Assembly (NCBI GenBank): GCA_964520885.1
Contig: CAZFQD010000001.1
Coordinates: 1 to 52,571, forward strand
Source of the DNA: an uncultured Oscillospiraceae bacterium
GTDB taxonomy: Bacteria; Bacillota; Clostridia; Oscillospirales; SIG519
Length of the DNA: 52,571 nt
Direction of reading: 5' to 3'
Shown here: positions 18,816-48,197 of the stretch, piece by piece
Layout of the letters: every line of letters begins with the position of its first letter
Position numbering within the stretch: the first letter of the stretch is position 1
Notes under the pieces: model-generated
Seen by the model: only the letters and a program-made list of their open reading frames with translations
Told to the model about the DNA's origin: nothing
Database searches by the model: none
Position numbers and translations under genes: made by a program

Positions 18816-18940
18816 AAGAAATAAAAAAGAAGAAATAAGAATTAAGGTATCAAAACTATTTTCTTTATATTTATTAATATTTGTTACACAAGAAAAAACA
18901 GAAAATATTGACATTGCAACGGAACGGTCAAGACCGCTCC
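18816..18940 (+). repeat. Composite repeat: (AAGAANN)x5 + core + palindrome
   Basis: Heptamers at 18816-18850. Core AAGGTATCAAAACTATTTTCTTTAT (18844-18868). CGGAACGGTCAAGACCGCTCC (18920-18940). Confidence 0.6.
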
Positions 18941-19011: not shown

Positions 19012-19515
19012 GTGAAAATACACATTATTGGCGGAAGTGGCACAGGCAAGTCATACATTGCGGAAAAAATATCTCGTAAGTTTGGAATGAAGCATTATGA
19101 TTTGGATGATATTTTTTGGGATAACGTAGCAGATACATATGGTACAAAAATGCCAATAGATAAGAGAACAGCTAAACTTAACGACATTCTTAAAAATGAC
19201 AACTGGGTAATTGAAGGTGTGTTTTACGATTGGCTTAGTGATAGTTTTTCGTTGGCGAATTACATTTTTATATTAAAAACAAAACCTATCGTTTTTAATT
19301 TCAGAATTATAAGAAGATTTTTTAGAAGAAAGTTTGGCATTGAAAAAGCGAAGAAAGAAACACTAAAATCTTTGAAGAATTTGCTTGTTTGGACGAACAA
19401 TTATCAAAAAAATAATATTCCAAAGATTGTATTATTTTTAGAGCCTTATAAGCAAAAAGTAATTTTGCTTAACAATGCCGAAAAAATATTAGATTATATT
19501 AACTTCACAAAATAA
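19012..19515 (+). CDS. P-loop NTPase, adenylate-kinase/FlaR-like (AAA family ATPase)
   Basis: GTG start. Walker A IIGGSGTGKSYIAEKI. ~165-aa single-domain kinase-like fold. Confidence 0.7.
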   Translation: MKIHIIGGSGTGKSYIAEKISRKFGMKHYDLDDIFWDNVADTYGTKMPIDKRTAKLNDILKNDNWVIEGVFYDWLSDSFSLANYIFILKTKPIVFNFRIIRRFFRRKFGIEKAKKETLKSLKNLLVWTNNYQKNNIPKIVLFLEPYKQKVILLNNAEKILDYINFTK

Positions 19516-19633
19516 CCCTTTAAAATGGGGAAACGATAAATATTTTATTATACAATAATTAAAAATGAGATTGCCACGCAATGTCAACTTTCAACTTTCC
19601 ACTTTCAACTTTCCACTTTCAATTTTCCACTCA
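19509..19633 (+). repeat. RAYT-like 3' remnant followed by a 7-unit heptamer array
   Basis: 19509-19544 matches 27425-27460 (35/36 nt; encodes NNPLKW.NDKY). (CAACTTT/CCACTTT)x7 at 19585-19633 ends 7 nt before the mutS RBS. Confidence 0.6.
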
Positions 19634-22263: not shown

Positions 22264-22536
22264 TTGTGGAATGGTCTTGACCATTCCGAAAAAGAAAACC
22301 TTGTATATATTATAACGGAACGGTCAAGACCGTTCCCTACCATACAAAAAATAATGGGTTTATACAAATCGGGTGTTTCAAAAAACATTCATTTAATTAA
22401 TGAAAAAATAGAAGTGTGGCAAAAATCATATTATGAACACATAATACGAAACGAACAAGATTACAAAGAAATCTATGAATACATAGAAAATAACCCTTTA
22501 AAATGGGAATTGGATAAATATTTTAACTTATCTTAA
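22264..22536 (+). pseudogene. 5'-truncated RAYT/IS200-like (Y1 HUH) transposase remnant with embedded palindromes
   Basis: C-terminal WQKSYYEHIIRNEQDYKEIYEYIENNPLKWELDKY is present but there is no HUH motif. Inverted palindromes GGAATGGTCTTGACCATTCC (22268-22287) and GGAACGGTCAAGACCGTTCC (22318-22337). Confidence 0.6.
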
Positions 22537-22615: not shown

Positions 22616-22680
22616 AAAGAAAATGACTTTGAAACCGAAAATTTTCAATTTTCAATTTTCAACTTTTCACTTTCAACTTA
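22616..22680 (-). repeat. Core (inverted) + heptamer array upstream of mutL
   Basis: AAAGAAAATGACTTTGAAACCGAAA is the reverse complement of the core. (ATTTTCA/ACTTTCA)x6 at 22641-22680. Confidence 0.6.
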
Positions 22681-22696: not shown

Positions 22697-24493
22697 ATGG
22701 ACAAAATTAATGTCTTAGATAAGCACACAAGTGAATTAATTGCCGCCGGTGAGGTAGTGGAAAGACCTGCATCGGTTGTTAAGGAATTGGTGGAAAATTC
22801 AATTGATGCCGGTGCTACTTTAATTGTTGCGGAAATAAAAAACGGAGGGCTTTCCTACATTAGAATTACCGATAATGGTTGTGGAATGAGCGAAAATGAT
22901 GCAAAAACCTCATTTTTACGGCACGCCACAAGTAAAATACATAATAAAGACGATCTTCAAAGTATTAACACAATGGGCTTTAGAGGTGAGGCTCTTGCGG
23001 CAATTTCAGCAGTTTCCAAAATAGAGCTTTTTACAAAGGAAAAGGGAGCCCAAAACGGAACCAAAATTTCGGTTGAGGGAGGAGATATTTTAAGTATTTC
23101 TCCTGCCGGTTGCCCCGATGGAACCACAATAGTTGTAAAAGATTTGTTTTATAACACTCCGGCAAGGCTTGCTTTTATGAAAAAGGATAGCACCGAAGCC
23201 TCTTACATTGCTTTAATTTTAGATAAATTAGCACTCTCTAACCCTCACATTTCAATTCGTTTTATTAAAGAGGGGAAAGAAGACCTTTTTACAGCAGGAG
23301 ATAATAAACAGTTATCAGTTATTTATAGTGTTTATGGCAGAGATTTTGCAAATGGCTTATTAGAAACAAAGTATTCTTATAATGATATTACAATAAAGGG
23401 CTATATTTCTAAGCCCTTAAATGTTCGCCCTAACCGAAATATGCAGGTGTTTTTTGTAAATGGTAGGGTAATTCGTTCAAGGCTTTTAATGGCGGCATTA
23501 GAGCAAGGCTATAAAAACTCTATTATGACAGGGAAATTCCCTTGTTGTGTCCTAAATATAAAGGTAAATTTAAAAAAAGTGGATGTTAATGTTCATCCTT
23601 CAAAACAAGAGATAAAATTTTCTAATGAAAAGGATATTTTTGATGCACTTTATTTTACTGTTAAAAATGTATTGGAAAATGATTTAGGAAGAAAGGAAAT
23701 CCAACTTAAAAATGTTAATCCTGTTTTGGTAACTGATACCTTTAAAGCAGATGAGCCTATTAACCAAAACACTCAAAGGTTATTTAATTTACTCGATAAT
23801 ATGAAGACAGATGATAACTTTTCAGTAAAGCAAAATGACGAAATAACTTCACAGGTTAATTCCTTTAAAAGTCAAGAATATTCAAATAACACAAATGTTA
23901 AAGTTGAAATAGAAGACCAACCAATTATTGATTTTTTAGTAATTGGTCAAGCATTTAATACATATATAATTGTTCAAGAGGGACAAAGCATTTTATTTAT
24001 TGATAAACACGCAGGGCACGAAAGAATTATATATGAAGAGTTAAAAAACAATGATAATGAGGCAAATTCTCAAATATTGCTTAGCCCAATAGTTGTGAAT
24101 TTACCTAAGGACCATTGTGAATTTGTAATGAATAATATAGGTGAATTTGAAAATTTAGGATTTTCACTTGAAGATTTTGGAAATGGTAGTATAATAATTA
24201 GAGAAGTGCCTTTAATTTTACCCGAAAGTGAGATTGAAGGGGCAATAATGGAATTAGCAGGAATAATTAAGCATAACAAAGGGTGCATAAATTTAAAGGT
24301 AAAAGATGAAATTTTACATAGTGTAGCATGCAAGGCGGCAATAAAAGGTGGCAGTTTAATGAGCGAATTTGAGCAAAACAGCTTTGTTAGAATGCTTTTA
24401 TCAATGCCCGATATAAAGTATTGCCCTCATGGGCGACCGATAATTGTTGAAATGACAAGGTATCAGTTGGAGAAAATGTTTAAAAGAAGCTAA
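22697..24493 (+). CDS. mutL: DNA mismatch repair protein MutL
   Basis: GHKL ATPase N-terminus (IAAGEVVERPASVVKELVENSIDAG, DNGCGM, GFRGEAL) and a C-terminal dimerisation domain. Confidence 0.95.
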   Translation: MDKINVLDKHTSELIAAGEVVERPASVVKELVENSIDAGATLIVAEIKNGGLSYIRITDNGCGMSENDAKTSFLRHATSKIHNKDDLQSINTMGFRGEALAAISAVSKIELFTKEKGAQNGTKISVEGGDILSISPAGCPDGTTIVVKDLFYNTPARLAFMKKDSTEASYIALILDKLALSNPHISIRFIKEGKEDLFTAGDNKQLSVIYSVYGRDFANGLLETKYSYNDITIKGYISKPLNVRPNRNMQVFFVNGRVIRSRLLMAALEQGYKNSIMTGKFPCCVLNIKVNLKKVDVNVHPSKQEIKFSNEKDIFDALYFTVKNVLENDLGRKEIQLKNVNPVLVTDTFKADEPINQNTQRLFNLLDNMKTDDNFSVKQNDEITSQVNSFKSQEYSNNTNVKVEIEDQPIIDFLVIGQAFNTYIIVQEGQSILFIDKHAGHERIIYEELKNNDNEANSQILLSPIVVNLPKDHCEFVMNNIGEFENLGFSLEDFGNGSIIIREVPLILPESEIEGAIMELAGIIKHNKGCINLKVKDEILHSVACKAAIKGGSLMSEFEQNSFVRMLLSMPDIKYCPHGRPIIVEMTRYQLEKMFKRS

Positions 24494-24500
24494 ATTAATA

Positions 24501-24597
24501 TAGAATGTAGAATGTAGAATTTCGGTGTCAAAGCCATTTTCTTTATTTGAATTTTGCATATTGTTAAATTTGTCATTGCGAGTGAAACGAAGCAATC
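24501..24597 (+). repeat. Composite repeat: (TAGAATG)x3 + core + palindrome
   Basis: Core TTTCGGTGTCAAAGCCATTTTCTTTAT (24520-24546). GTCATTGCGAGTGAAACGAAGCAATC (24572-24597). Confidence 0.6.
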
Positions 24598-24636
24598 TCA
24601 TAATATTAGGGATAAAGGGATAAAGGAAAAATTATA

Positions 24637-25871: not shown

Positions 25872-27092
25872 TTGGTGAAGAATAAAGGTACAAAAATTTA
25901 TTTAGTAATAGCTGTAATAATTATTTCCGCATATGCAATAATTCAAGCAATATTTTTGTTTGCAAAGCCTTTAAAAACTGAAAAATTAGTTGAATTTACT
26001 GCTGATGATTTTATTTCATCAGAAGGTTTTATTATGCGAAAGGAAACTCTAATTAAGACTTCTAATAGTGGCTCTCCTGAATATTTAGTTGGAGAGGGAG
26101 AAAAAGTTAAAAAAGATAGTATTATTGCAGTAATGTATTCGGGTAACGATGATGTAGCCACAAAAAACAAAATTAATGATTTGGAAAAGAAAATTAGTCA
26201 AATTGAGAATAGTCTTAGCACAAATGATTTATTTATGTCTGATGCTTTAAAATTGGAAAATATGATTGAAGAAAAGCTAATGCTCATTGCTAAGGCAAGC
26301 GGAACAAAAAAAACCGTTTTAGTTTCACAATATACAAATGAATTGCAAACCTTACTAAATAAAAAGCAAATTATTTTAGGTGAGGTTGAAGGTTTTGACA
26401 AAAAACTTAAGAGTTTAAAGCAAGAGAGAGATAACTTAAAAGAAAACTTTTCAGGGCAGTTTGCCAATGTATCAACACCAGTAGCAGGTTTTTTTTCAAG
26501 TGAATTTGATGGTTATGAAAATCTCTTAGAACCGGAATTTTTAAAGAAGAATGGATTTTCTGCTTTTAATGAAGTTTTAGCATTAAAAAGCGGTTCAAAT
26601 AAACCCTCAAATTATATAGGCAAAATTATTGAGGATTTTAAAATGTATTATGCATGCATAATGCCTTTTAAACAAATAAGGGATTATTCAGTTGGAGACA
26701 ACTTTAAAATTAGGTTTGAAAATTCAAAAGGAGGAGAAGTTAATTCAAGCATTTGGCATATGGATGAAAGTAGCCAAGATGTTCTTGTTATATTTGAATG
26801 CGATACTGCTAATTCGCAAACTAATAATTTAAGGAAAGAAAAAGCACAAATTATTACCAAAAATTATAAAGGCTATAAGGTAAATAAATCAGCTGTTCGA
26901 ATGATTGATAATACTACCGGAATTTTTGTTTTAGTTGGAGTTCAAATTCAGTTTAAACCTGTAAAAGTCCTTTTTTCAAGGGATGATTATATGATAATAG
27001 TTGCAGATAGTGAAAAAAGGGGTAGCCTTATGACTAATGAACAGGTTGTAGTTGAAGGCAAAGAACTTTTTGATGGGAAAATCGTGAAATAA
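25872..27092 (+). CDS. HlyD-like membrane-fusion/barrel-sandwich protein with N-terminal TM anchor and coiled coil
   Basis: N-terminal TM helix, a lipoyl-like GEGEKVKKDSIIAV segment and a long coiled coil. The start is ambiguous (TTG 25872 or GTG 25875). Confidence 0.5.
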   Translation: MVKNKGTKIYLVIAVIIISAYAIIQAIFLFAKPLKTEKLVEFTADDFISSEGFIMRKETLIKTSNSGSPEYLVGEGEKVKKDSIIAVMYSGNDDVATKNKINDLEKKISQIENSLSTNDLFMSDALKLENMIEEKLMLIAKASGTKKTVLVSQYTNELQTLLNKKQIILGEVEGFDKKLKSLKQERDNLKENFSGQFANVSTPVAGFFSSEFDGYENLLEPEFLKKNGFSAFNEVLALKSGSNKPSNYIGKIIEDFKMYYACIMPFKQIRDYSVGDNFKIRFENSKGGEVNSSIWHMDESSQDVLVIFECDTANSQTNNLRKEKAQIITKNYKGYKVNKSAVRMIDNTTGIFVLVGVQIQFKPVKVLFSRDDYMIIVADSEKRGSLMTNEQVVVEGKELFDGKIVK

Positions 27093-27109
27093 TTGCAAAT
27101 TGCAAATGA

Positions 27110-27472
27110 ATTGTTGAGAACAATATAAATATTATTGCAAATTACAAGGAATACATAAAGGTTATAAATTATTGCATAATGCCAAATCACATTCATTTGT
27201 TGTTGGCAATTTGTAGGGAACGCATTGTATGCGTTCCGAATGAAAACCGAACCAAAATGGAAATTTCAAAAATAATACAGCAATTTAAAGCATCAGTTTC
27301 AAAACAATGTAGTGCAATCAATAATAACGGAACGCATACAATGCGTTCCCTACAATGGCAAAAATCATATTATGACCACATAATCAGAAACAAAAAAGAC
27401 TATAAAGAAATTTATGAATACATAGAAAATAACCCTTTAAAATGGGAAAACGATAAATATTATTGCAAGTAA
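27110..27472 (+). pseudogene. 5'-truncated RAYT/IS200-like (Y1 HUH) transposase remnant with embedded palindromes
   Basis: The in-frame stretch ..YKEYIKVINYCIMPNHIHLLL (HUH motif) opens only after TGA 27107. The C-terminus is WQKSYYDHIIRNKKDYKEIYEYIENNPLKWENDKY. Perfect hairpins GGAACGCATTGTATGCGTTCC (27216-27236) and its reverse complement (27328-27348) lie inside the reading frame. Confidence 0.65.
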
Positions 27473-27481
27473 ATATTAATT

Positions 27482-27539
27482 AAAGAAAATAGTTTTGATA
27501 CCATAATTGTTAATTGTTCCTTGTTAATTGTTCATTGCA
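27482..27539 (-). repeat. Core (inverted) + heptamer array upstream of yggS
   Basis: AAAGAAAATAGTTTTGATACCAT is the reverse complement of the core. (AATTGTT/CCTTGTT)x5 at 27505-27539. Confidence 0.6.
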
Positions 27540-29039: not shown

Positions 29040-29150
29040 GTATAAAAAATTAGTAATTATGAATTAGGAATAAAAGTATGGCTTTGTCACTTGATATTAA
29101 TTTAAGTCAACTTTGGCACACATTAATTATACAATGCAAAAAAAAATAAA

Positions 29151-29963: not shown

Positions 29964-32753
29964 ATGCCACAGGATTACAATCAAACTTTAAACCTGCCAA
30001 AAACGGATTTTCCAATGAGGGCAGGTTTGCCACAAAGAGAGCCGGAATTATTAAATAAATGGTCGCAAGAAAAATTATATGAAAATATTTTAAAGCAAAA
30101 CAATGAAAAGCCACTTTACATTTTGCATGATGGACCGCCTTATGCTAATGGCGACATTCATATAGGACACGCATTAAATAAAGTTTTAAAGGACATTGTT
30201 GTTAGATATAAAAATATGTCAGGTTTTAAGGCTCCTTATGTTCCCGGCTGGGATACTCATGGCTTGCCTATTGAACTTCAAGCTATAAAAAGCTTAGGAA
30301 TAAATAGAGCAAATACTGATGTATTGGAGTTTAGAAAGCATTGCAAGGATTTTGCATTAAAATATGTAGCAAATCAAAAAGAACAATTTAAAAGGCTCGG
30401 TGTAATTGGCGATTGGGATAATCCCTATTTAACTTTACAACCTGAATTTGAAACAAAGCAAATAGAAATTTTCGGTGAAATGGCTAAAAAAGGGTATATT
30501 TATAAGGGCTTAAAGCCTGTTTATTGGTGCCCCCACGATGAAACTGCTCTTGCAGAAGCAGAAATAGAATATGCTGAAGATACAAATAATTCTGTATTTG
30601 TAAAGTTTAAAGTAACAGATGATAAAGGCAAATTGACTGCTTTAACTAATGAAAAGTGCGACAATATGTATTTTGTTATTTGGACTACTACAATATGGAC
30701 TTTGCCGGGCAATGTTGCTATTTGTGTTGGACCTAAATATAAATACTCTCTTGTTAAATGTAATAATGAAATTTTAATATTAGCAAACGAATTAATAAAA
30801 AGTGTAATGAAAGCCACAAACATTGATGATTATAAGGTTTTAGCCGAAATAAACGGAAAAGACCTTGAATTAATGAGTACACAACATCCTTTTTTAGACA
30901 AGCAATCACTTGTTATAGTTGGTGACCATGTAACTTTAGAAGCTGGAACAGGTTGTGTTCACACAGCACCGGGACACGGTGTGGATGACTTTATTGTTTG
31001 CCAAAATTATAAACAACTAAAAATAGTAGTCCCCGTTGATAATAAAGGGGTTATGATTGCTGATGCCGGAAAGTTTGCTGGGCTTTATTATAAAAAAGCA
31101 AACAAGGCAATTTTTGAAGATTTGCAGGAAACAAATGCACTTTTAGCAACAGAAACAATAATTCACCAATACCCTCATTGTTGGAGATGTAAAAGCCCGA
31201 TTTTGTTTAGAGCGACGGAACAATGGTTTTGTTCAGTAGAAGATTTTAAAGAGCAAGCTATAAAGGCTTGTCATAGTGCCAAATGGGTTCCTGCTTGGGG
31301 CGAGGATAGAATTGTAAGTATGATTAAGGATAGAAATGATTGGTGCATTTCAAGGCAAAGAGTTTGGGGCGTTCCAATTCCTGTTTTCTATTGCAAAAAA
31401 TGCGGAAAATATATTATTAATGATGAAACTATTAATGCCGTATCAGAAAAATTTAGATTAGAAGGCTCTGATGCTTGGTATAAATATAGTGCAAAAGAAC
31501 TTTTGCCAAATGGTATTTCTTGTGAATGTGGGCATACTGAATTTAGAAAAGAAACTGATATTATGGATGTTTGGTTTGATAGTGGCTCCTCTCATAAAGC
31601 AGTGCTTGAAACAAGAGAGGGTTTAACAAGCCCTGCTGATATGTATTTAGAAGGGAATGACCAATATAGAGGTTGGTTTCAGTCCTCTTTGTTGACTTCG
31701 GTAGCAACAAGCGGAATTGCTCCTTATAAAACAGTTTTAACTCATGGCTTTGTAGTGGATAAAGAAGGTAAAAAAATGTCCAAATCACAAGGCAATGTTA
31801 TTAGTCCACTTGATATAATAAAAGAATATGGGGCAGATATTTTAAGGCTTTGGGTGGCAAGTTCTGATTATACTGTGGATGTGAGGATTTCAAATGATAT
31901 TTTAAAGCAGTTATCTGAGGTTTACAGAAAAATAAGAAACACCGCAAGATTTATTTTAGGAAATATTAATGATTTTAATCCAGATAATGATATGGTGGAA
32001 TATTCAAAAATGCCAGAACTTGATAAATGGGCATTAATCAAACTTAATGCCTTAATTGAAAAGGTTAACAAAGCATATAACGAGTATGAATACCACACTG
32101 TTTATCACTCTATTCACAATTTTTGCGTTGTTGATATGTCGAATTTTTATCTTGATATAATAAAGGATAGGTTATATTGCGAAAACGCCTCTTCGGTTGA
32201 TAGAAGAACTGCTCAAACGGTAATGTATATTATACTTGATGCGTTGGTTAAAATACTCTCGCCCGTGCTTTGCTTTTCTGCTGAGGAAATTTGGCAGTTT
32301 ATGCCTCATACAAGTGATGTAAAAAAACAAAGTATTTCCTTTAACCAAATCCCAAAGATTAATACTCTATATGTAGATAATATAATTTCAGAGCAATTTG
32401 ATAAACTCTTAGAAATAAGAGAGGATGTTAAAAAAGTTCTTGAAATAGCAAGAACAGCAAAAACAATTGGCTCTTCGCTTGAAGCGAAATTGGTTATTTA
32501 TTGCAATCAAGAAAAATACGATTTTCTAAACGGAATTGAAGACTTTTTAACAACCGCCTTTATTACCTCACAAGTGCAACTTGTAAAGGGAGAAAACAAG
32601 GACGCATTTATAGGCGAGTATAGTGGAATTGCTGTTGAAGTTAAAAAAGCCGACGGCTTAAAATGTGAACGATGCTGGGTATTTAGCACAACGGTAGGGC
32701 AAAGCGAAAAGCACCCGACGCTTTGTGAAAGATGTACAAAAGTAGTCGGTTAG
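29964..32753 (+). CDS. ileS: Isoleucine--tRNA ligase
   Basis: HIGH motif (PYANGDIHIGHALNK), KMSKS motif (GKKMSKSQGN) and a C-terminal zinc-finger CERCW...CERC. Confidence 0.95.
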   Translation: MPQDYNQTLNLPKTDFPMRAGLPQREPELLNKWSQEKLYENILKQNNEKPLYILHDGPPYANGDIHIGHALNKVLKDIVVRYKNMSGFKAPYVPGWDTHGLPIELQAIKSLGINRANTDVLEFRKHCKDFALKYVANQKEQFKRLGVIGDWDNPYLTLQPEFETKQIEIFGEMAKKGYIYKGLKPVYWCPHDETALAEAEIEYAEDTNNSVFVKFKVTDDKGKLTALTNEKCDNMYFVIWTTTIWTLPGNVAICVGPKYKYSLVKCNNEILILANELIKSVMKATNIDDYKVLAEINGKDLELMSTQHPFLDKQSLVIVGDHVTLEAGTGCVHTAPGHGVDDFIVCQNYKQLKIVVPVDNKGVMIADAGKFAGLYYKKANKAIFEDLQETNALLATETIIHQYPHCWRCKSPILFRATEQWFCSVEDFKEQAIKACHSAKWVPAWGEDRIVSMIKDRNDWCISRQRVWGVPIPVFYCKKCGKYIINDETINAVSEKFRLEGSDAWYKYSAKELLPNGISCECGHTEFRKETDIMDVWFDSGSSHKAVLETREGLTSPADMYLEGNDQYRGWFQSSLLTSVATSGIAPYKTVLTHGFVVDKEGKKMSKSQGNVISPLDIIKEYGADILRLWVASSDYTVDVRISNDILKQLSEVYRKIRNTARFILGNINDFNPDNDMVEYSKMPELDKWALIKLNALIEKVNKAYNEYEYHTVYHSIHNFCVVDMSNFYLDIIKDRLYCENASSVDRRTAQTVMYIILDALVKILSPVLCFSAEEIWQFMPHTSDVKKQSISFNQIPKINTLYVDNIISEQFDKLLEIREDVKKVLEIARTAKTIGSSLEAKLVIYCNQEKYDFLNGIEDFLTTAFITSQVQLVKGENKDAFIGEYSGIAVEVKKADGLKCERCWVFSTTVGQSEKHPTLCERCTKVVG

Positions 32754-32802
32754 GAGTTAGTAATGAAATGATAAATGACAATTGTTTAAAGGAGATGAAG
32801 AA

Positions 32803-33381: not shown

Positions 33382-33398
33382 TTGGCACATAATTCTTC

Positions 33399-33472
33399 AG
33401 CATAACAGTAGGGCAAAGCGAAAAGCACCCGACGCTTTGTGAAAGATGTGCAAAAGTAGTTGGTTAGGAGTT
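33399..33472 (+). pseudogene. ileS: Displaced copy of the ileS 3' end (partner 32685-32758)
   Basis: 74 nt with 4 mismatches and no indels. Includes the TAG stop and the first heptamer unit. Confidence 0.85.
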
Positions 33473-33505
33473 GGGAATTAGGATTTAGGAATTAAGAATA
33501 AAATT
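33464..33505 (+). repeat. Heptamer array (TTAGGAG/TTGGGAA/TTAGGAT/TTAGGAA/TTAAGAA)
   Basis: Six consecutive 7-nt units read directly from the sequence. Confidence 0.55.
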
Positions 33506-36006: not shown

Positions 36007-36708
36007 ATGGTAAACCAACTTTCAAGACTATTAATTTTATTAAGACAAGAAAAGGGAATATCACAAAAAAAAGCCGCAGATGCTTTGGAAATTTCTCAAG
36101 CCTTGCTATCCCATTATGAAAAGGGAATTAGAGAATGTGGCTTGGATTTTTTGATAAAGGTTGCTAATTTTTATAATGTGTCCACCGATTACTTATTGGG
36201 CAGAACAGCCGATAGACAAGGCGCCATTTTTTCATCAGAAGATATCCCCGATGAAAATTCAATGGGAAAGGAAAATATTTATAAGGGTAGTGTTTTGTCT
36301 ACCTTAAATAAAAGATTAATATTTAATTCATTAAACATTCTTTTTGACCTTTTGCAAAAAACCAACAATAAGCAAATAGTAAATGAGGTTTCCACTCATA
36401 TAATGCTTTCGGTTTATAGAAATTTTCGCTATATATATTGCTTAAATGAGGATAATCCAACAAGCCTTTTTGCCGCAGATAATGCTGTTTTTTCTCATTT
36501 ATGTAACTGTGCAGAAAATATGGCTGAGTTAAATGTTAGTTGTTTAACTAATTATAAACAATCAAAAAGTATTAAACCAATAAATATTGAAAAAGAAAAA
36601 TTTACTTTAAATCAACAAGAAATAGAGAGGCTTTATCCTTTGTATGCGTCGTCATTGCTAAATTTAATTCAAAATTGCGAAACAAAAATGAATGTCAGAA
36701 AAAAGTAA
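36007..36708 (+). CDS. XRE-family HTH transcriptional regulator with uncharacterised C-terminal domain
   Basis: N-terminal HTH LRQEKGISQKKAADALEISQALLSHYEKG, then ~160 aa with no recognised motif. Confidence 0.8.
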   Translation: MVNQLSRLLILLRQEKGISQKKAADALEISQALLSHYEKGIRECGLDFLIKVANFYNVSTDYLLGRTADRQGAIFSSEDIPDENSMGKENIYKGSVLSTLNKRLIFNSLNILFDLLQKTNNKQIVNEVSTHIMLSVYRNFRYIYCLNEDNPTSLFAADNAVFSHLCNCAENMAELNVSCLTNYKQSKSIKPINIEKEKFTLNQQEIERLYPLYASSLLNLIQNCETKMNVRKK

Positions 36709-36727
36709 AAATTAATAAGACAAAACA

Positions 36728-36762
36728 AAAAATGGGCGAATAAAAACCGCCCATTTTTTTTA
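36728..36762. terminator. Terminator after the XRE gene (bidirectional shape)
   Basis: AATGGGCG AATAAAAAC CGCCCATT followed by T8, with an A-run upstream. Confidence 0.8.
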
Positions 36763-36823
36763 TTTTGCTTAATCAATACTCAACCACTCTTAACTCCTCG
36801 TTCCTAATTCCTAACTGTTATTA

Positions 36824-36889
36824 ATCAATTAACTAAAACCCCATTATCATTTTGCAGTAAAATCAATATATCCTCTTCATTGCCATTTT
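36824..36889 (-). pseudogene. ypeB: Displaced copy of the ypeB 3' end (partner 39129-39194)
   Basis: 66 nt with a single mismatch, which is synonymous (GGA/GGC) in the ypeB frame. Same orientation as the intact copy. Confidence 0.85.
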
Positions 36890-37065
36890 CCTCATATTAT
36901 GAGCTATACTTAATACTAATTCTCCATTAAAATATAGAAAATATTTTAATACGAAAGGGTAAACTTTCAAAACATTTTGTAAAAATGTTTGAGAATGAAA
37001 AGACATGGAAAGACAGGGTTCAGTCTAAACGGTCCCTTATGTTCGCTGTAATATTATAAACTATA

Positions 37066-38781
37066 TTAGCTAATTGTTTGTATTCCCAAAAGATGTTTTT
37101 TTATCGCAATTAAATCGCTTATAGAAATATTCCCGTTGTCATAAATATCTCCGGCAATTTTATTAATACCATTCAAAAAATTTATTCCCAACAAGTGGTT
37201 TTTAACAGCTGCTAAGTCCAAAATATCAATAATATTATCCCCATTAGTATCACCCAATTTATAAATATTTGCTATTGTAACAGTTTTATTTGTTACATTT
37301 CCGGCATCATCGGTTGCCACAAATTCAAAGATACCGTTTTCAGCAAAAGTATGAGTTGGAGCATTTAATGAACCTTCATTTGTTGAGGCAGTTACTGTAA
37401 TATTTTTATTTGTTGGAGTTGTATTATAATCTGCAAGTGTTATCATAGGTGCCACCTTATCAATATTATTTATTGTTACTGTTATTGTTATAACATTGCC
37501 CACATCATCTGTTGCCACAAAATCAAAGCTGCCATTTTCAGTAAATGTATGGCTTGTTTCATTTAATGTACCTTCATTAGCCGCAGCTGTAACAGTAACA
37601 TTTTGATTTGTCGGAGTGTTAACATAACTATTTATTGTAATACTCACTGAAGGTATTACTACGAACTGTATATTTTTACTTGCTGCAAATGTCTTAGCAT
37701 ATGAATTGTCAGCCCCATATATAACTACTTTTGTGCTACCGAAAAATGCATTTGGTGCAATACTTGTTACACTATTAGGAATTGCAATTTTAATTAAATT
37801 AGCACAACTGCTAAATGTATCGCTACTTATACTTGTTACACTATTGGGAATGGTTATTGTTGTTATGCCGGAGCATAGGTAAAATGCTCCATCTCCTATA
37901 CTTGTTACACTATTTGGAATTGTTATTGATGTTATACCACAACTACTAAATGTATTATTTCCAATACTTGTCACACTATTGGGAATGGTTATTGATTTTA
38001 AACTAATACATTGATAAAAAGCAAACTCTCCCAAAATTGTTACACTATTTGGAATGATATAGCAAGTTGTTGTTTTCCCTGCAGGGTATTGAATAATTAT
38101 TGTCTTATCTTTGTTAAACAATACTCCGTCGGTGCTTGAATAAAATAAATTATTTGAGTCCACATTAATTGAGGTTAAGACGGGAGAAAAATAAAATGCT
38201 TGTTTTCCTATACTTGAAACACTACTTGAAATATCTACTGTTGTTAATTTTAAACAACCAGAAAACGCATAATCTCCAATGATTGTTACACTATTTGGAA
38301 TTGTTATTGATGTTAAACTACTGCAAGATGAAAATGCATAATTACTGATATTTGTTACACTATTTGGTATTATTATTGAGGTTAATTTTCTGCATCCATA
38401 AAATGCATAGATCCGAATATTTTTTACGCTATTTCCTATTGTTATTGAAGTTATTCCACTACATTGTAAAAATGCATAGTTATTTATATTTATTACACTA
38501 TCCGGAATTATTACTGAGGTGATACTGGTTTTATTTTCAAACGCATTATATCCAATTTCAGTTACCGGTTTCCCTGCAATTGTATCAGGTATAGTAACCG
38601 CACCACCGGTTCCCGTATAACCTGTAATTCTAACATTAGCACCATTATCAATTAACGCATAATTAAAATTCCCACTTGATAATGCAAACGATGGCAATGC
38701 CAAACTCGACACCAAAGAAATCGCCAAAAGTAATGTTAATAAAACCGATACTGCTTTTTTAATAATATTCACTTTTTTCAT
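37066..38781 (-). CDS. Secreted BspA-type leucine-rich-repeat protein with two Ig-like modules and C-terminal dockerin
   Basis: Signal peptide. About 12 repeats of IPNSVT.I...AF..C..LTSITI. Two TN(Q/K)N(V/I)TVTA...HTF.ENG.F.FVATDD.GN modules. Dockerin GDTNGDNIIDILDLAAVKNHLLG...GDIYDNGNISISDLIAIKKHLLG. Confidence 0.8.
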   Translation of the reverse strand: MKKVNIIKKAVSVLLTLLLAISLVSSLALPSFALSSGNFNYALIDNGANVRITGYTGTGGAVTIPDTIAGKPVTEIGYNAFENKTSITSVIIPDSVININNYAFLQCSGITSITIGNSVKNIRIYAFYGCRKLTSIIIPNSVTNISNYAFSSCSSLTSITIPNSVTIIGDYAFSGCLKLTTVDISSSVSSIGKQAFYFSPVLTSINVDSNNLFYSSTDGVLFNKDKTIIIQYPAGKTTTCYIIPNSVTILGEFAFYQCISLKSITIPNSVTSIGNNTFSSCGITSITIPNSVTSIGDGAFYLCSGITTITIPNSVTSISSDTFSSCANLIKIAIPNSVTSIAPNAFFGSTKVVIYGADNSYAKTFAASKNIQFVVIPSVSITINSYVNTPTNQNVTVTAAANEGTLNETSHTFTENGSFDFVATDDVGNVITITVTINNIDKVAPMITLADYNTTPTNKNITVTASTNEGSLNAPTHTFAENGIFEFVATDDAGNVTNKTVTIANIYKLGDTNGDNIIDILDLAAVKNHLLGINFLNGINKIAGDIYDNGNISISDLIAIKKHLLGIQTIS

Positions 38782-39028
38782 TTTGTCCCCTCCAAATTGT
38801 GTTTAATTAAGTGTAATTTTTTTCTAATTAAGTAGTATTATATTGTATTTATATTAATATTTCAATATATATATAACATTTTACTGCCAAAGGGATGCAC
38901 CAAAGGGACGGAGTTTTGACAATCATATATATTATGCTAATTTAACATCTAAATATTACATACATAATAGCATATTGAAAACTATTTTGTCAATCACAAA
39001 TTTTTTTGTTTTTTATTCAAAAGTTGAG

Positions 39029-39058
39029 CAAAAAAATGGACGAATTTACTCGTCCATT
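39029..39058 (-). terminator. Minus-strand terminator just downstream of ypeB (inside the inserted segment)
   Basis: ATGGACGA/TCGTCCAT stem. On the minus strand a T-run follows it (complement of A-run 39031-39036). Confidence 0.7.
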
Positions 39059-39129
39059 TCTCATTTGTGCAAACAATTTTTTTGTACAAACTTCCCATTT
39101 TTAATATAATTATGCATTATTTTCTTTTA

Positions 39130-40479
39130 TCAATTAACTAAAACCCCATTATCATTTTGCAGTAAAATCAATATATCCTCTTCATTTCCATTTTTTGCGT
39201 TTATATATATTAACATATTTTTATCGTCAATAGTTTTACATTTAAATTCATAGCAAAGTCGTTCAACTTTTCCCGGAGTTGGTATAATACATAGCTCACT
39301 TCCTTCAATTTTTAAAGAAGGGCTAACTTTTTTTTCTGCTTGTGCTTTGGTTAAAATTGGAGTTACATCTCTATTTGTAGTATGATTCATTAAATATCCA
39401 TTTGCTTCAAAACTCATAATTTTACCATCATTTAAAGAAACACCCACCTTAATTAAATCGGGATAACATATTGCATTATCTAATACATAAGCGAAATTAA
39501 TTGTTAAAATATTATTGCCTTCATAATAATAGCTTTCTTTCATATTTTTATAATTCTTGCTAATTAAAAACCCTTGTGCTTTCTTAATTGCTTGCTCAAA
39601 ACTAATATTTTTAGCGGTAATAGCAGCACTATTTAACATACTATAAACAAATCCGCCCTGCCGAGTAATTTCAATTGAAACAGTTCCACTATTAAACGAA
39701 AAGGTGGGAATTAAACCATTAGTTTCGCCTACATAAACGATATTTTCAATATTTACATTTAAAAATTCCGCCGCCTTTTTTTTAGCATTTACATTAGAAA
39801 ATTGAGGTTGATTTTTTAGCATTGTAGGGGATAAGTTTTCTAAATGCTCGCTAAATGGTCCATCATAAATTAATTTTGGGTAACTTGCAATATCCTCTTC
39901 AATTTTAGCCATTTCACTTGTTAAACTTATGGCATTCTCATTGCCGTTTTTTTCAGTGTTTTTAATTAAATTTAATAGTTCATTATTTTTTAGATTTCCA
40001 TTTTGCACCTCGCTTTGCAAGAAACTAATTTGTGTTGCTAAAATTGTGGCTTCATCCGAAAGGTTTTTCAAAGTTTCTCTATCTTGTTCGTTAATTACTC
40101 CACCCTCTAAAACTTTCCTCGATAAAGAATTCACATACTCACCTGTTTGAGATAAAAATTTTGCTGTTCCCATTAAATTAGAAGCATAAAAAGGCAATGC
40201 CGAAATGCTTTCCTTTGCAGCACTGGTTGTTTTCCAAATTTGACTTGCCAAACCCACTAACTGCAATGAAGAATTTGCATATAGGCCCTTTTGCAAAGTG
40301 GCATCAATAGTATTCATATATTCCGATAATTGTGCAAATGAGCCTTGATAGGTATAGCTAATATATCGTCTGTAAATTGAAGATTGAACAAAAAAGGTAA
40401 GTGCAAAACCAGCTATAACTGCCATTAAGGATACAGTATAGCTTATTATTCTAATTAATTGTCTTCTTGTTAAATGCAT
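39130..40479 (-). CDS. ypeB: Spore germination protein YpeB (PepSY-domain)
   Basis: 449 aa. N-terminal TM anchor, the YpeB-type N-domain (SFAQLSEYMNTIDATLQKGLYANS) and C-terminal PepSY repeats. Confidence 0.8.
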   Translation of the reverse strand: MHLTRRQLIRIISYTVSLMAVIAGFALTFFVQSSIYRRYISYTYQGSFAQLSEYMNTIDATLQKGLYANSSLQLVGLASQIWKTTSAAKESISALPFYASNLMGTAKFLSQTGEYVNSLSRKVLEGGVINEQDRETLKNLSDEATILATQISFLQSEVQNGNLKNNELLNLIKNTEKNGNENAISLTSEMAKIEEDIASYPKLIYDGPFSEHLENLSPTMLKNQPQFSNVNAKKKAAEFLNVNIENIVYVGETNGLIPTFSFNSGTVSIEITRQGGFVYSMLNSAAITAKNISFEQAIKKAQGFLISKNYKNMKESYYYEGNNILTINFAYVLDNAICYPDLIKVGVSLNDGKIMSFEANGYLMNHTTNRDVTPILTKAQAEKKVSPSLKIEGSELCIIPTPGKVERLCYEFKCKTIDDKNMLIYINAKNGNEEDILILLQNDNGVLVN

Positions 40480-45366: not shown

Positions 45367-45442
45367 TAACCAACAACACAATCTGCCATCTTTTTTGCTA
45401 CCCATCTAAAAAAAATAAGCCTAATAAGTTAGAACAGCAAAT

Positions 45443-45658
45443 TTTATCATTAAACAAAGTGGTATCATTAAGTAAAACGATTTCATTAAATGAGCAAAGC
45501 GAGTGATTTCATTAAGCAAAGCGATTTCATTATTAAAACTTAAAACTTAACAACTAAAATGAAAAAATGAAAACGGGACTTATGTCCCTTAATGAAACCG
45601 CTACACTAAATGATATCGGTGCTTTGCACCTAAATGATATCGTGCTACGCACTTAATG
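45443..45658. repeat. Inverted arrays of an 11-nt box (GATWTCATTAA)
   Basis: Five direct boxes (45445, 45462, 45479, 45505, 45522). GGGAC-TTAT-GTCCC hairpin at 45575-45588. Four inverted boxes (45588, 45607, 45631, 45652). Confidence 0.55.
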
Positions 45659-45713
45659 TTTGCTGATTAAACTTATAGCCATAAAAACCATAAACGAAAG
45701 GACAAATTTTATA

Positions 45714-46961
45714 ATGAGTGATACCGCACTGCAAGAAGTTACAAGATGTTTAAAATGCAAAAATGCACCTTGTATGAAAGCATGCCCTGTCCAAACACCT
45801 TTACATAAGGCATTTGACCTTTTGGAAAATGGAGAAATTGAAAAGGCGGGCAAGTTGCTTTTTGACAATAATCCTCTCTCAATTGCTTGTGCTCATGTTT
45901 GTCCTCAAGAGTTACAATGTGAAGGCAACTGTGTATTAGGAATAAAAAGCCTTCCCATTAGGGTGCATGAGGTTGAAAAATATATTTCAAATTTCTATTT
46001 GGATTTAAAAGAAAAAGATGTCCCGAAAGCGGATATAAACAAAAGAGTGGCAATTATTGGAGCCGGTCCCGCAGGCATTACTATTGCAATTGTTTTAGCC
46101 AAAAAGGGTTATGCAACTACTATTTTTGAAGTTTATGATAAAATAGGTGGTGTTTTGCAATATGGAATACCTGAATTTAGATTGCCAAAGCAAATTTTAG
46201 AACGATTAAAGCAGAAAATGCTGGATATGGGTATAAAAATTCGCCCCAATACTCTTATTGGGCAAACTATTACAATAGATGATTTACTTAATGATGGTTA
46301 TAAAGCTGTTTTTATTGGCACAGGAGTTTGGAAAGCCAACACTTTAAAAATTAAAGGCGAAACATTTGGCAATGCCCATTATGCTATTGATTATTTAAAA
46401 ATGCCTCAATCATATAACCTTGGAAACAGCGTTTGTGTAATTGGTGCCGGAAATGTTGCAATTGATGTTGCCCGCACTGCTTTAAGAAATGGAGTAAGAG
46501 AAGTAACAATAATGAACAAAGGCAATGAATATGATATGGCATCCTTAAAATCAGGAATTGCTTATGCCAAGTTGGATGGGGTTAAGCTTTTGCACTTTAA
46601 AATGCCGATAGAAATTTTAGATGATGGTGTAAAATATTTAGAAACTTGTTATAACGATGGAAACTTACTTATTGTAAAAGAAAACAGTGAGGGATTTTTT
46701 CCTTGTAGCAGTGTAATTATTTCAATAGGACAAGGACCTCGTTCTCTGATAGTTTCAAGCACAAAAAATATTTCAGTGAATAATAAAGGGCTTGTTATAA
46801 CTGATAAAGAAGGTAAAACTTCAAAGGAAGGCGTTTTTTCCTCTGGTGATGTGGTTACCGGTGCAAAATCAGTTGTTCAAGCTGTTGTGCAATCTAAAAT
46901 AGTTGCTGATAATATAGATAAATATGTAACTGAACTCTTAAAAAAAGAAAAGAGACCTTGA
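45714..46961 (+). CDS. NAD(P)H-dependent oxidoreductase of the GltD/NfnB/SudA family (glutamate synthase small-subunit-like)
   Basis: Start at MSDTALQE (ATG 45714). N-terminal Fe-S motifs CLKCKNAPCMKACP and CAHVCPQELQCEGNC. FAD/NAD folds IIGAGPAGITIA and VIGAGNVAIDVA. Confidence 0.8.
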   Translation: MSDTALQEVTRCLKCKNAPCMKACPVQTPLHKAFDLLENGEIEKAGKLLFDNNPLSIACAHVCPQELQCEGNCVLGIKSLPIRVHEVEKYISNFYLDLKEKDVPKADINKRVAIIGAGPAGITIAIVLAKKGYATTIFEVYDKIGGVLQYGIPEFRLPKQILERLKQKMLDMGIKIRPNTLIGQTITIDDLLNDGYKAVFIGTGVWKANTLKIKGETFGNAHYAIDYLKMPQSYNLGNSVCVIGAGNVAIDVARTALRNGVREVTIMNKGNEYDMASLKSGIAYAKLDGVKLLHFKMPIEILDDGVKYLETCYNDGNLLIVKENSEGFFPCSSVIISIGQGPRSLIVSSTKNISVNNKGLVITDKEGKTSKEGVFSSGDVVTGAKSVVQAVVQSKIVADNIDKYVTELLKKEKRP

Positions 46962-47042
46962 TTTTGGCTCTCTTGACAATATATTTTTCTTATGATAAAA
47001 TAAATGAAAATTTGCATAAAAATATTATTAGGAGAGTGTAAA

Positions 47043-48197
47043 ATGAACTATTTTCTTACAGAAGAACAGCAAATGATTAAAGACCTTTCTAAAACAATAG
47101 CAGATGAAAAAATTGCTCCAGTAGCAATTCAATATGATGAAGAAGGTAAATTCCCAAATGATATAATAAAAATATTAGCAGATTCTGATTTGTGTGGAGT
47201 ATATATTGAAGAGCAATACGGCGGTTTAGGCGGTGGTATTTTTGAAATGGCACTTGTTATTGAGGAATTAAGCCGTGCTTGTGGAGGAATAGCACTTTCT
47301 TATGCTGGAACAGGACTTGGAACTTTTCCAATTATTCTTTTTGGAAATGATGAGCAAAAAAATAAATACTTACCCCAAGTTGCATCAGGCAAAAAACTTG
47401 CGGCTTTCGGTTTAACTGAAGCCAATGCCGGTAGCGATGCCGCCGGTGTTCAAACCACAGCAGAATTAGATGGTGATGAATACATATTAAATGGGACAAA
47501 ACAATGGATAACAAATGGTGGCGAGGCTGATATTTACACAATAATCGCTTGTACAAATAAAACAAAAGGTTCAAGAGGCTTTTCGGCATTTATTGTTGAT
47601 AAAGGCACACTCGGTTTCTCTTTTGGAAAAAAAGAAAACAAAATGGGAATTAGAGCTTCTTGCACTGTTGAATTAGTTTTTGAAAACTGTAGAATTCCAA
47701 AAGAAAATCTGCTTGCAAGAGAAGGAATGGGCTTTATTGTGGCTATGAAAACGCTTGATAGAACAAGACCGGGCGTTGCCGCTCAAGCATTAGGTATTGC
47801 ACAAGGTGCTTTTGAAGTAGCAGTAAAATACTCAGGAGAAAGAGTTCAATTTAGGCAAAAAATTTCATCTTTCCAAGCAATTCAACACATATTAGCTGAT
47901 ATGGCAATTCAAATAGAAGCTTCAAGAGCATTAGTTTATCAAACATGCAAATTTATTGATAGTGGTGCGAAAAATATTTCCAAAGATTCTGCTATGTGCA
48001 AGGTTTTAGCATCTGATACTGCAATGAAAGTTACTACTGATGCCGTTCAGGTTCTCGGAGGATATGGCTATATGAAAGAATATCCTGTTGAAAAAATGAT
48101 GAGAGATGCAAAAATCACTCAAATTTATGAGGGAACAAACCAAATTCAAAGAAATGTAATTGCACTTGAATTGATAAAAGAACAATCAACCAAGTAA
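47043..48197 (+). CDS. Acyl-CoA dehydrogenase (butyryl-CoA dehydrogenase-like)
   Basis: Start at MNYFLTEEQQMIKD after AGGAGAG. GLTEANAGSDA and QVLGGYGYMKEYPVEKMMRDAKITQIYEGTNQIQ. Confidence 0.9.
   Translation: MNYFLTEEQQMIKDLSKTIADEKIAPVAIQYDEEGKFPNDIIKILADSDLCGVYIEEQYGGLGGGIFEMALVIEELSRACGGIALSYAGTGLGTFPIILFGNDEQKNKYLPQVASGKKLAAFGLTEANAGSDAAGVQTTAELDGDEYILNGTKQWITNGGEADIYTIIACTNKTKGSRGFSAFIVDKGTLGFSFGKKENKMGIRASCTVELVFENCRIPKENLLAREGMGFIVAMKTLDRTRPGVAAQALGIAQGAFEVAVKYSGERVQFRQKISSFQAIQHILADMAIQIEASRALVYQTCKFIDSGAKNISKDSAMCKVLASDTAMKVTTDAVQVLGGYGYMKEYPVEKMMRDAKITQIYEGTNQIQRNVIALELIKEQSTK

What the first reader, a model, noticed from the sequence alone, without database searches (positions are those of the whole stretch)
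36824..39194. LRR-dockerin gene inserted behind the germination gene ypeB with a near-perfect 66-nt duplication
The last 63 nt of ypeB (minus strand) plus 3 nt of flank at 39129-39194 recur at 36824-36889. The single mismatch is synonymous (GGA/GGC). The 2.2-kb segment between the copies carries its own terminator for ypeB (39029-39058), a promoter region and the BspA-type LRR/Ig/dockerin ORF in the same orientation. Beyond the displaced copy lie a heptamer array and the bidirectional terminator shared with the XRE gene, which looks like the original ypeB downstream context. The near identity suggests this is the youngest of the three insertions. It delivers a second dockerin-bearing cargo for the cohesin encoded 30 kb away.
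Basis: partly seen in the sequence, partly recalled or inferred. Interest (0 to 1): 0.7.

Follow-up and report, generated by a model that had tools for sequence, protein, structure and literature searches.

The report
Gene cassette inserted behind ypeB
A 2.3-kb cassette carrying one secreted LRR-dockerin surface protein gene sits directly behind the spore-germination gene ypeB, flanked by two copies of ypeB's last 66 bases; it is one of three such insertions in this 52-kb contig, a familiar island architecture found here without any recombinase gene.

Summary
Bases 36824-36889 and 39129-39194 are a 66-nt direct repeat with one mismatch (GGA/GGC, synonymous). No such repeat appears in shuffled sequence. 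It is present in five read sets. The upstream copy is the true end of ypeB. The downstream copy is a non-coding relic lying next to a period-7 array and a bidirectional terminator. Between the copies lie a terminator, promoter-like sites and an intact signal-peptide/LRR_5/dockerin gene.

The insertion reading is well supported by this geometry. The same geometry recurs at mnmG (190 nt, 89%) and ileS (83 nt, 92%). No empty site was found, because every public sample is the same population (at least 99.88% identical).

Across the three repeat pairs, 19 of 26 differences are synonymous. The two copies are therefore two functional alleles, not one copy decaying in place. The incoming DNA brought its own gene terminus. 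Percent identity therefore does not date the events, and "youngest" is not established.

No integrase or transposase lies in the cassette or anywhere in the window. The closest known kind is a decayed, att-flanked integrative element (CIME-like). One-sided homologous capture from a relative remains a live rival.

The distant "cohesin" is supported by a family profile. Binding is untested. Interest is moderate.

The parts
39130..40479 (-). ypeB, intact germination gene and target of the insertion
   Evidence: Pfam YPEB_N and YPEB_PepSY1-2. The terminal 21 aa lie in a conserved part of the last PepSY domain; E433, L437, I438 and G445 are invariant in 9 sequences.
39129..39194 (-). Gene-proximal repeat copy: the last 62 coding bases and stop codon of ypeB plus 1 nt of flank (attL-like)
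39034..39059 (-). Cassette-borne intrinsic terminator that now ends the ypeB transcript
   Evidence: Hairpin of -17.7 kcal/mol, z -4.4, followed by U7 on the minus strand
38837..38993 (-). Two sigma-70-like promoter matches upstream of the LRR gene: TTGACA-18-TATTAT with TG, and TTGAAA-17-TATAAT
   Evidence: Both score 11 of 12, the best in the region. The scan as a whole is not enriched over shuffles, so this evidence is weak.
37066..38781 (-). Cargo gene: signal peptide, BspA-type LRR_5 repeats, two roughly 66-aa tandem repeats of unassigned fold, and a type I dockerin
   Evidence: Pfam LRR_5 1e-71 and Dockerin_1 4e-10. The dockerin matches solved type I dockerins 2ccl_B and 1ohz_B. The signal peptide is read directly from the N-terminal sequence; no predictor was run.
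36890..37065 (-). Distal non-coding end of the cassette. It has no strong terminator, so the LRR transcript probably reads through into the relic and the old ypeB terminator.
   Evidence: The fold gives z -1.96 only. No terminator-like site was found here.
36824..36889 (-). Displaced, non-coding copy of the ypeB terminus (attR-like relic)
   Evidence: 65 of 66 identical. The frame is closed upstream, so it is not part of any ORF.
36780..36820 (-). Period-7 array (GTTAGGA ATTAGGA ACGAGGA GTTAAGA), presumed native 3' UTR of ypeB
   Evidence: Read directly. Arrays of the same kind follow the displaced mnmG and ileS termini and several uninterrupted genes.
36727..36759 (.). Bidirectional intrinsic terminator shared with the convergent XRE gene (36007-36708)
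   Evidence: -23.3 kcal/mol on the minus strand and -20.5 on the plus strand, z -5.4 and -6.2

Best explanation
A 2.3-kb accessory cassette entered the chromosome by a recombination event whose crossover lay within the last ~66 bp of ypeB. The cassette comprises a terminator, promoter-like sites, one secreted LRR-dockerin gene and a short tail.

The incoming DNA carried its own copy of the ypeB terminus. After the event, YpeB is completed by one copy. The other copy is pushed 2.3 kb downstream as a non-coding relic, still attached to the old 3' UTR and terminator, which now serve the LRR gene. This is the outcome of Campbell-type integration of a circular molecule through a short homologous or att-like segment.

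The cassette encodes no recombinase. The enzyme was therefore supplied in trans (an integrase encoded elsewhere or since lost, giving a CIME-like decayed integrative element) or was the host's general recombination system.

Shown: the repeat, its position, the intact genes, the regulatory signals, the recurrence at two other core genes, and the allele-like nature of the differences between copies. Inferred: that an empty site once existed, the circular intermediate, and the enzyme.
For: The repeat is exact enough to exclude chance and is present in five read sets.

The geometry of gene, cargo, displaced terminus, period-7 array and terminator occurs three times in 52 kb, at mnmG, ileS and ypeB. 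In all three the cargo has the same orientation as the target gene.

The duplicated YpeB segment is conserved and probably needed, which explains why only insertions that restore it survive.

Differences between copies number 19 synonymous against 7 non-synonymous, with 21% synonymous expected at random (p about 1e-8). Even against a model of one decaying copy plus one selected copy (40% expected), p = 6.5e-4. For mnmG, about 0.38 of synonymous sites differ against 0.027 of non-synonymous sites. So one terminus came from a diverged functional allele.

In every pair, similarity stops 1-11 nt after the stop codon.

Gene-terminus duplications are about 25 times denser here (3 per 52.6 kb) than in 1.3 Mb around ypeB in 80 other species plus the relatives' contigs (at most 3, of which one looks genuine).

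CIMEs of 1.2-13 kb carrying cargo genes and flanked by att repeats at gene 3' ends are documented in Firmicutes (PMC5704250, PMC7563491).
Against: No empty site, excised circle or second context of the cassette was found. Every sample is at least 99.88% identical. The repeat core is absent from 185,579 species genomes and from the JGI contigs.

No integrase, transposase or relaxase lies in the cassette or anywhere in the window. There are no remnants of ICE or IME genes, and no similarity to plasmids or phages beyond the LRR repeats.

The three repeats share no sequence, and the cargo ends share no significant motif, so a single site-specific recombinase is not indicated.

None of 80 other ypeB loci has its terminus repeated within 10 kb, so the ypeB end is not a recurrent attachment site.

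The cassette's GC content equals that of its flanks.

The ypeB pair alone has one difference, so the two-allele argument rests mainly on mnmG.
Confidence: 0.6

Rival explanations
1. One-sided homologous capture from a related lineage (homology-facilitated illegitimate recombination, or break repair copied from foreign DNA). A break about 66 nt before the ypeB stop was repaired using DNA from a relative in which the LRR gene already lay behind ypeB. The left end invaded the homologous ypeB and copied the donor terminus plus the cassette. The far end was then joined without homology to the resident terminus. No circle or integrase is required.
For: The differences between copies look like differences between two functional alleles. 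The repeat lengths vary (66, 83, 190 nt) and there is no common motif. Similarity ends where synteny would end, just after the stop codon. There is no recombinase in the window. The GC content is the same as the host's. The population also shows illegitimate recombination at a 12-nt microhomology.
Against: It needs a donor lineage that already carries cargo directly behind the same three core genes, which moves the question of origin elsewhere. No such lineage exists in the databases: the next YpeB is 62% identical and lacks synteny. In the nearest relatives the cohesin module lies at other loci. From my own knowledge, published HFIR events usually delete recipient DNA rather than duplicate it. 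No obvious microhomology is visible at the 36889/36890 joint.
Confidence: 0.25
2. A long target-site duplication. The cassette was pasted into a staggered break with overhangs of 66-190 nt that were then filled in. The copies were identical at first and diverged afterwards, or the gene copy was later replaced by allelic recombination.
For: Direct repeats flank the insert exactly. The ypeB pair is nearly identical.
Against: No transposase and no terminal inverted repeats are present. From my own knowledge, no known bacterial element makes target duplications of this length and variability. The synonymous excess in the mnmG and ileS pairs contradicts divergence in place unless a second event is invoked.
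Confidence: 0.05
3. No insertion occurred. The LRR gene is ancestral at this site, and the 66-nt copy is the remnant of a partly deleted second ypeB, or of a local duplication or gene conversion. Alternatively, the repeat is an assembly artefact.
For: No empty site was found anywhere. All the data come from one population.
Against: Three separate core genes show the same geometry, each relic being followed by a native-looking 3' UTR and terminator. This would require three independent duplications of essential single-copy genes, each trimmed to its last 66-190 nt. An artefact is excluded by contigs built with k=141 that span everything, and by k=31 contigs that break exactly at the repeat.
Confidence: 0.05
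4. The repeat pair is a template/variable repeat pair of a diversity-generating retroelement acting on the YpeB C-terminus.
For: A gene's 3' end has a near-identical non-coding copy close by.
Against: No reverse transcriptase is present in the window. The only mismatch is synonymous, and the adenine is in the gene copy, not in the would-be template. IleRS and MnmG are not plausible diversification targets. The YpeB terminus is conserved.
Confidence: 0.01

Closest known systems
CIMEs (cis-mobilizable elements): decayed ICE/IME remnants flanked by attL/attR at the 3' end of a target gene, described in streptococci (PMC5704250, PMC7563491)
   Same: Size is 2.3 kb, within the reported 1.2-13 kb range. 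It carries only cargo. It has no integrase or transfer genes. It is flanked by direct repeats, one of which is the functional 3' end of the target gene. The gene is kept intact.
   Different: No neighbouring ICE or IME. No remnant of element genes. The repeats are not shown to be att sites. ypeB is not among the target genes named in the passages I read of those two papers. Three unrelated targets lie within 40 kb with no shared core. All cargo is co-oriented with the target gene, and in two cases has no intervening terminator.
Integrative elements and prophages that insert into the 3' end of tRNA or protein genes and carry a replacement terminus
   Same: The target's 3' end is duplicated, with an element-borne copy that diverges mostly at silent positions. 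The resident end is displaced to the far side.
   Different: No integrase, excisionase or any phage or conjugation gene is present. The element is a single-gene cassette.
Homology-facilitated illegitimate recombination during natural transformation
   Same: Foreign DNA is anchored by one homologous segment in a conserved gene. No dedicated recombinase is needed.
   Different: To my knowledge, described events replace or delete recipient DNA rather than leaving a duplicated anchor.
Cellulosome-type cohesin-dockerin systems with BspA-like LRR cargo
   Same: The cargo has a type I dockerin with two Ca-binding repeats. The window also encodes a cohesin plus cadherin-like protein downstream of a dockerin-bearing polysaccharide deacetylase.
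   Different: The cohesin partner of this dockerin is unknown. The LRR protein has no enzymatic domain, so it is more likely an adhesin displayed on the cell surface.

Membership tests
CIME (decayed integrative element) | Flanked by direct repeats (attL/attR), one of them overlapping the 3' end of the target gene | tested here: met
   66-nt repeat, 65 of 66 identical, with the gene-proximal copy forming the ypeB terminus
CIME (decayed integrative element) | Lacks functional integration, excision and transfer genes | tested here: met
   The only ORF is LRR-dockerin. No recombinase family was found in the cassette or the window.
CIME (decayed integrative element) | Derived from an ICE or IME: remnant element genes, or a related intact element using the same att site | tested here: not met
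   No remnants, and no similarity to plasmids or phages. The repeat core is absent from genome and metagenome collections. None of 80 other ypeB loci shows a repeated terminus within 10 kb.
CIME (decayed integrative element) | The repeats are recombined by a site-specific integrase (excision to a circle plus an empty site) | not testable with these tools
   This needs raw reads, PCR, or the rest of the genome.
Transposon / insertion sequence | Transposase gene, terminal inverted repeats, short target duplication | tested here: not met
   No transposase. No inverted repeat at the cassette ends. The duplication is 66 nt.
Diversity-generating retroelement | Reverse transcriptase, and template/variable repeats differing at template adenines | tested here: not met
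   No RT in the window. There is a single synonymous mismatch with the A in the gene copy.
YpeB germination protein | YPEB_N plus PepSY domains, full length | tested here: met
   Pfam 1e-29 and 2e-47. It aligns end to end with YpeB of other Clostridia.
Dockerin-bearing (cellulosome-type) surface protein | Type I dockerin with duplicated Ca-binding segment | tested here: met
   Pfam Dockerin_1 4e-10 at residues 509-565. Matches solved dockerins.
Dockerin-bearing (cellulosome-type) surface protein | Binds a cohesin encoded by the same organism | not testable with these tools
   A cohesin candidate exists at 6155-7948. Binding requires an experiment.

The most novel reading that the evidence does not exclude
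This uncultivated low-GC Clostridia lineage has a recurrent way of capturing accessory genes that needs no cassette-borne recombinase. The genes are placed directly behind core genes using the last 60-200 bp of the core gene as the recombination segment. The inserts are scarlessly excisable, and the lineage uses them to assemble its cohesin-dockerin surface repertoire. The density of three events in 52 kb, all co-oriented with the target gene, would then reflect a lineage-specific mechanism and not three unrelated decayed elements.
Probability: 0.15. Interest if true: 0.7.

Novelty: new member of a known kind. Interest (0 to 1): 0.4.

Why it matters
If the reading is right, the locus shows how a poorly known spore-forming anaerobe adds surface proteins to a cohesin-dockerin display system without disturbing essential neighbours. 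The incoming DNA repairs the gene it lands in and borrows that gene's old terminator.

The three parallel events give a small natural series for asking whether such islets arise through integrases acting in trans or through ordinary homologous recombination with relatives. The synonymous-bias test used here is a simple way to tell an incoming terminus from a terminus that decayed in place.

In practice, 66-190-nt repeats of this kind break short-k assemblies, as they do in the Logan contigs here. They can also mislead dating of insertions by repeat identity.

Tried and rejected
Search for an empty site or a second context.
- Exact-protein look-ups were run for YpeB, the LRR protein, XRE, the zf_Tbcl neighbour and DUF2442. 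They returned only the same arrangement, at 99.88-100% identity, from ENA, Logan and JGI samples.
- Exact scans for the repeat core found nothing in the species-representative genomes or in the JGI metagenome contigs.
- The nearest YpeB relatives are 62% and 52% identical and have no synteny downstream of ypeB. The insertion therefore cannot be polarised.

Homologues of the LRR protein. The list is dominated by longer multi-repeat proteins. No close orthologue or donor could be identified.

Mobile-element signatures.
- No recombinase family was found in any ORF of 120 aa or more within 1-29 kb, nor in the insert region. For 29-50 kb, precomputed Pfam annotations show none.
- There is no similarity to plasmids or phages beyond the LRR repeats.
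- There are no terminal inverted repeats.
- There is no shared motif at the three cargo ends: the best shared 8-mer with one mismatch occurs in 4.5% of random triples.
- No compositional anomaly is seen.
- No Rfam family overlaps the repeat.

Is the ypeB 3' end a recurrent attachment site? None of 80 loci from other species shows a repeated terminus within 10 kb.

Repeat scans of relatives' contigs (L005, L006, L019, L021) found no flanking duplications.

An accession search of the literature for the source samples found nothing.

The 'Ig' domain assignment gave no Pfam or PDB sequence hit. Structure prediction was not used, because it would not bear on the insertion.
Full report
**1. The observation**

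The stretch 36824-36889 recurs at 39129-39194 with one mismatch in 66 nt. Extended by three bases, the match is 67 of 69. A search for the 66-mer allowing three mismatches finds exactly these two places, and none in 100 dinucleotide-preserving shuffles.

The ORF at 39130-40479 on the minus strand is a full-length YpeB (Pfam YPEB_N 1e-29, YPEB_PepSY1-2 2e-47). The upstream copy therefore holds the stop codon, the last 62 coding bases and 1 nt of flank. The mismatch is GGA in the gene against GGC in the other copy, both glycine.

The second copy is not part of any ORF, because its frame is closed by stop codons just upstream. The 21 residues encoded by the repeat lie in a conserved part of the last PepSY domain. 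E433, L437, I438 and G445 are invariant among nine YpeB sequences that are only 37-61% identical overall.

**2. What lies between and beyond the copies**

Reading on the minus strand from the ypeB stop, the features are as follows.
- A strong hairpin at 39034-39059 (-17.7 kcal/mol, z -4.4) is followed by seven U.
- Two sigma-70-like matches score 11 of 12, at 38993-38964 and 38865-38837. The scan as a whole is not enriched over shuffles, so this is weak evidence.
- An intact 571-aa ORF (37066-38781) has a signal-peptide-like N-terminus, BspA-type LRR_5 repeats (1e-71) and a type I dockerin (4e-10). The dockerin also matches solved dockerins 2ccl_B and 1ohz_B.
- The two roughly 66-aa tandem repeats before the dockerin have no Pfam or PDB sequence hit, so 'Ig' is unverified.
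- The 176 nt after the LRR stop contain no convincing terminator.
- Then come the displaced ypeB terminus, a period-7 array (GTTAGGA ATTAGGA ACGAGGA GTTAAGA), and a bidirectional terminator at 36727-36759 shared with the convergent XRE gene (-23.3 and -20.5 kcal/mol).

If one repeat copy and the segment between the copies are removed, the result is a normal gene end: ypeB, stop, about 65 nt of 3' UTR, terminator.

**3. Independent assemblies**

- Contigs from ENA samples ERZ27248920 and ERZ27248965 cross both copies and the cargo at more than 99.9% identity to the window.
- A 2.2-kb contig from ERZ27248885 joins the XRE side to the LRR gene across the displaced copy.
- Logan contigs (k=31) from SRR8437287 and SRR8437278 end at 36853 on the XRE side and at 39157 on the ypeB side. 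Each end lies exactly 30 nt into the 58-nt identical stretch, which is the expected behaviour when a sequence longer than k occurs in two contexts.

The repeat is therefore real. All these samples, and two JGI metagenomes, hold essentially one population (99.88-100% identity), so they cannot provide a strain that lacks the cassette.

**4. Search for an empty site or a donor**

- The YpeB cluster at 90% identity has only this species. The next relatives are 62% and 52% identical, and their ypeB genes have unrelated neighbours.
- The repeat core has no exact match in one genome per species for 185,579 species, nor in the JGI contigs.
- The LRR protein has no close orthologue that I could identify, because the hit list is swamped by longer LRR proteins.
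- The cassette shows no similarity to plasmids or phages apart from the LRR repeats.
- Its GC content (29-32%) equals that of the flanks.

The insertion is therefore inferred from anatomy, not demonstrated by comparison.

**5. The same anatomy occurs three times**

A repeat scan of the whole window and codon-level comparison show two more cases.
- The last 190 nt of mnmG (1736-1925) recur at 8003-8192 at 89% identity. Between them lie a polysaccharide-deacetylase-dockerin gene (1956-6158) and a cohesin/cadherin-like gene (6155-7948).
- The last 83 nt of ileS (32682-32764) recur at 33396-33478 at 92% identity. Between them lies a DUF4160/DUF2442 pair.

In all three cases the cargo has the orientation of the target gene, the similarity stops 1-11 nt after the stop codon, and the displaced copy is followed by a period-7 array. 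For ileS and ypeB a bidirectional terminator then follows.

A generic scan recovers these three events in 52.6 kb. Of those three, only one (L092, a SpoVAC-like gene) looks genuine on inspection. With that background, three or more events in a window of this size have a Poisson probability of about 3e-4 or less. The caveat is that the window was noticed because of them.

None of the 80 other ypeB loci has its own terminus repeated within 10 kb.

**6. What the differences between copies say**

Within the homologous coding parts there are 26 nucleotide differences, 19 of them synonymous. Random change would give 21% synonymous (p about 1e-8). A model in which the relic decays freely while the gene accepts only silent changes would give about 40% (p = 6.5e-4).

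For mnmG alone there are 15 silent changes over roughly 39 silent sites, against 4 replacement changes over roughly 147 sites. One of those replacements is a stop codon in the relic.

The copies are therefore best read as two alleles that each evolved as part of a working gene, with a little decay of the relic afterwards. One terminus arrived with the incoming DNA, or was swapped in later by allelic recombination. Consequently, percent identity between copies measures allele divergence, not age. For ypeB itself there is only one difference, so this inference is by analogy with the other two events.

**7. Mechanism**

The geometry is what Campbell-type integration produces: sharp borders on both sides, a restored gene, and a displaced terminus next to the native downstream context. 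In that process a circular DNA carries a short segment matching the target's end.

No ORF in the window belongs to an integrase, transposase or relaxase family (precomputed annotations). The cassette has no inverted termini. The three repeats and the three cargo ends share no significant motif.

The closest described category is the CIME. This is a cargo-only remnant of an integrative element that keeps attL and attR at the 3' end of its target gene. CIMEs are reported at 1.2-13 kb in streptococci (PMC5704250, PMC7563491). Two of its defining features are met here: the flanking repeats, and the lack of recombination and transfer genes. Derivation from an ICE or IME was tested and not met, and activity of the repeats as att sites cannot be tested here. 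I therefore describe the locus as working like a CIME and do not file it as one.

The main rival is one-sided homologous capture from a related lineage, with an illegitimate join at 36889/36890. It explains the allele-like differences, the variable repeat lengths and the absence of a recombinase. It requires a donor that already had cargo behind the same genes, and no such lineage is known. A 1,620-bp deletion between 12-nt direct repeats in one sample shows that illegitimate events do occur in this population.

Three further readings are unlikely for the reasons given in the rival list: a long target-site duplication, remnants of duplicated genes, and a diversity-generating retroelement.

**8. 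The cohesin-dockerin claim**

ORF 6155-7948 itself hits only Cadherin-like in Pfam, even at E up to 5, and nothing in the PDB by sequence. A profile of 31 family members matches solved cohesins (1g1k, 2vn5, 5nrk and others) at about 1e-10 over profile positions 30-161. In addition, 23 of the 31 members hit PF00963. A cohesin is therefore supported.

The LRR protein's dockerin is 44% identical to the dockerin of ORF 1956-6158. Whether it binds this cohesin is an experimental question.

In the nearest relatives, the cohesin gene follows a different dockerin protein and sits at other chromosomal sites without flanking repeats. This fits a module that moves.

**9. Verdict**

The insertion reading is well supported by anatomy and by two parallels, but no empty site has been found. 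The dating claim does not hold. The functional link to the cohesin is plausible but untested.

The architecture belongs to a known kind: an islet at a gene's 3' end flanked by a duplicated terminus. The unusual aspects are the absence of any recombinase, the density of events, and the uniform orientation of the cargo. Interest is moderate.

Noticed in passing
window 1736-1925 and 8003-8192: The last 190 nt of mnmG (gidA) are repeated 6.3 kb downstream at 89% identity. They flank a polysaccharide-deacetylase-dockerin gene (1956-6158) and a cohesin/cadherin-like gene (6155-7948). The relic has an internal stop codon. 15 of the 19 differences are synonymous.
   Followed up: partly
window 32682-32764 and 33396-33478: The last 83 nt of ileS are repeated 714 nt downstream at 92% identity, flanking a DUF4160/DUF2442 gene pair. 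The relic is followed by a TTAGGAA array and a bidirectional terminator shared with the beta-propeller gene.
   Followed up: partly
window 45443-47062: Strain polymorphism. The ERZ27248920 contig lacks 1,620 bp between two 12-nt direct repeats (AGAACAGCAAAT at 45431-45442 and 47063-47074). The deletion removes a GltD-like oxidoreductase gene (45660-46961) and the first codons of the acyl-CoA dehydrogenase gene. The window and ERZ27248965 keep the segment.
   Followed up: partly
window 8204-8227, 18655-18686, 18815-18846, 19584-19631, 22640-22679, 24497-24520, 27091-27107, 27504-27537, 29048-29071, 33464-33499, 36780-36820, 45533-45559: Many intergenic regions, often directly after stop codons, hold short arrays with a 7-nt period (units such as GAATAAT, TTAGGAA, CAACTTT, AATTGCA). 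Several are followed by a conserved TTTCGGTATCAAAACTATTTTCTTTAT motif (18651-18713, 18807-18869, 24485-24547; similar at 8229-8255). Their function is unknown.
   Followed up: no
window 22417-22522 / 27356-27461; 19509-19547 / 22487-22525 / 27426-27464; 8329-8366 / 24567-24604: Dispersed intergenic repeats, 38-106 nt long and 89-92% identical, lie between core genes (mutS, mutL, miaA, ylmE). They look like a small repeated-element family and not like insertion scars.
   Followed up: no
window 8507-8667 and 12533-12617: A glmS ribozyme (115 bits) and a NiCo riboswitch (60 bits) are present. The mechanical ORF start at 8545 overlaps the ribozyme, so the true glmS start must lie further downstream.
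   Followed up: no
L092 406-525 and 1790-1909: In a Eubacteriales MAG, the last 120 nt of a SpoVAC-like gene are repeated 1.4 kb downstream at 86% identity, around a 400-aa ORF on the opposite strand. This was the only convincing analogue found in 1.3 Mb of other genomes.
   Followed up: partly
L019 135-1877; L021 1049-8640: In the nearest relatives the cohesin/cadherin-like gene sits at other chromosomal sites: upstream of valS in L019, and after an S8 peptidase-LRR-dockerin gene in L021. The dockerin-protein plus cohesin pair therefore behaves as a movable two-gene module.
   Followed up: partly
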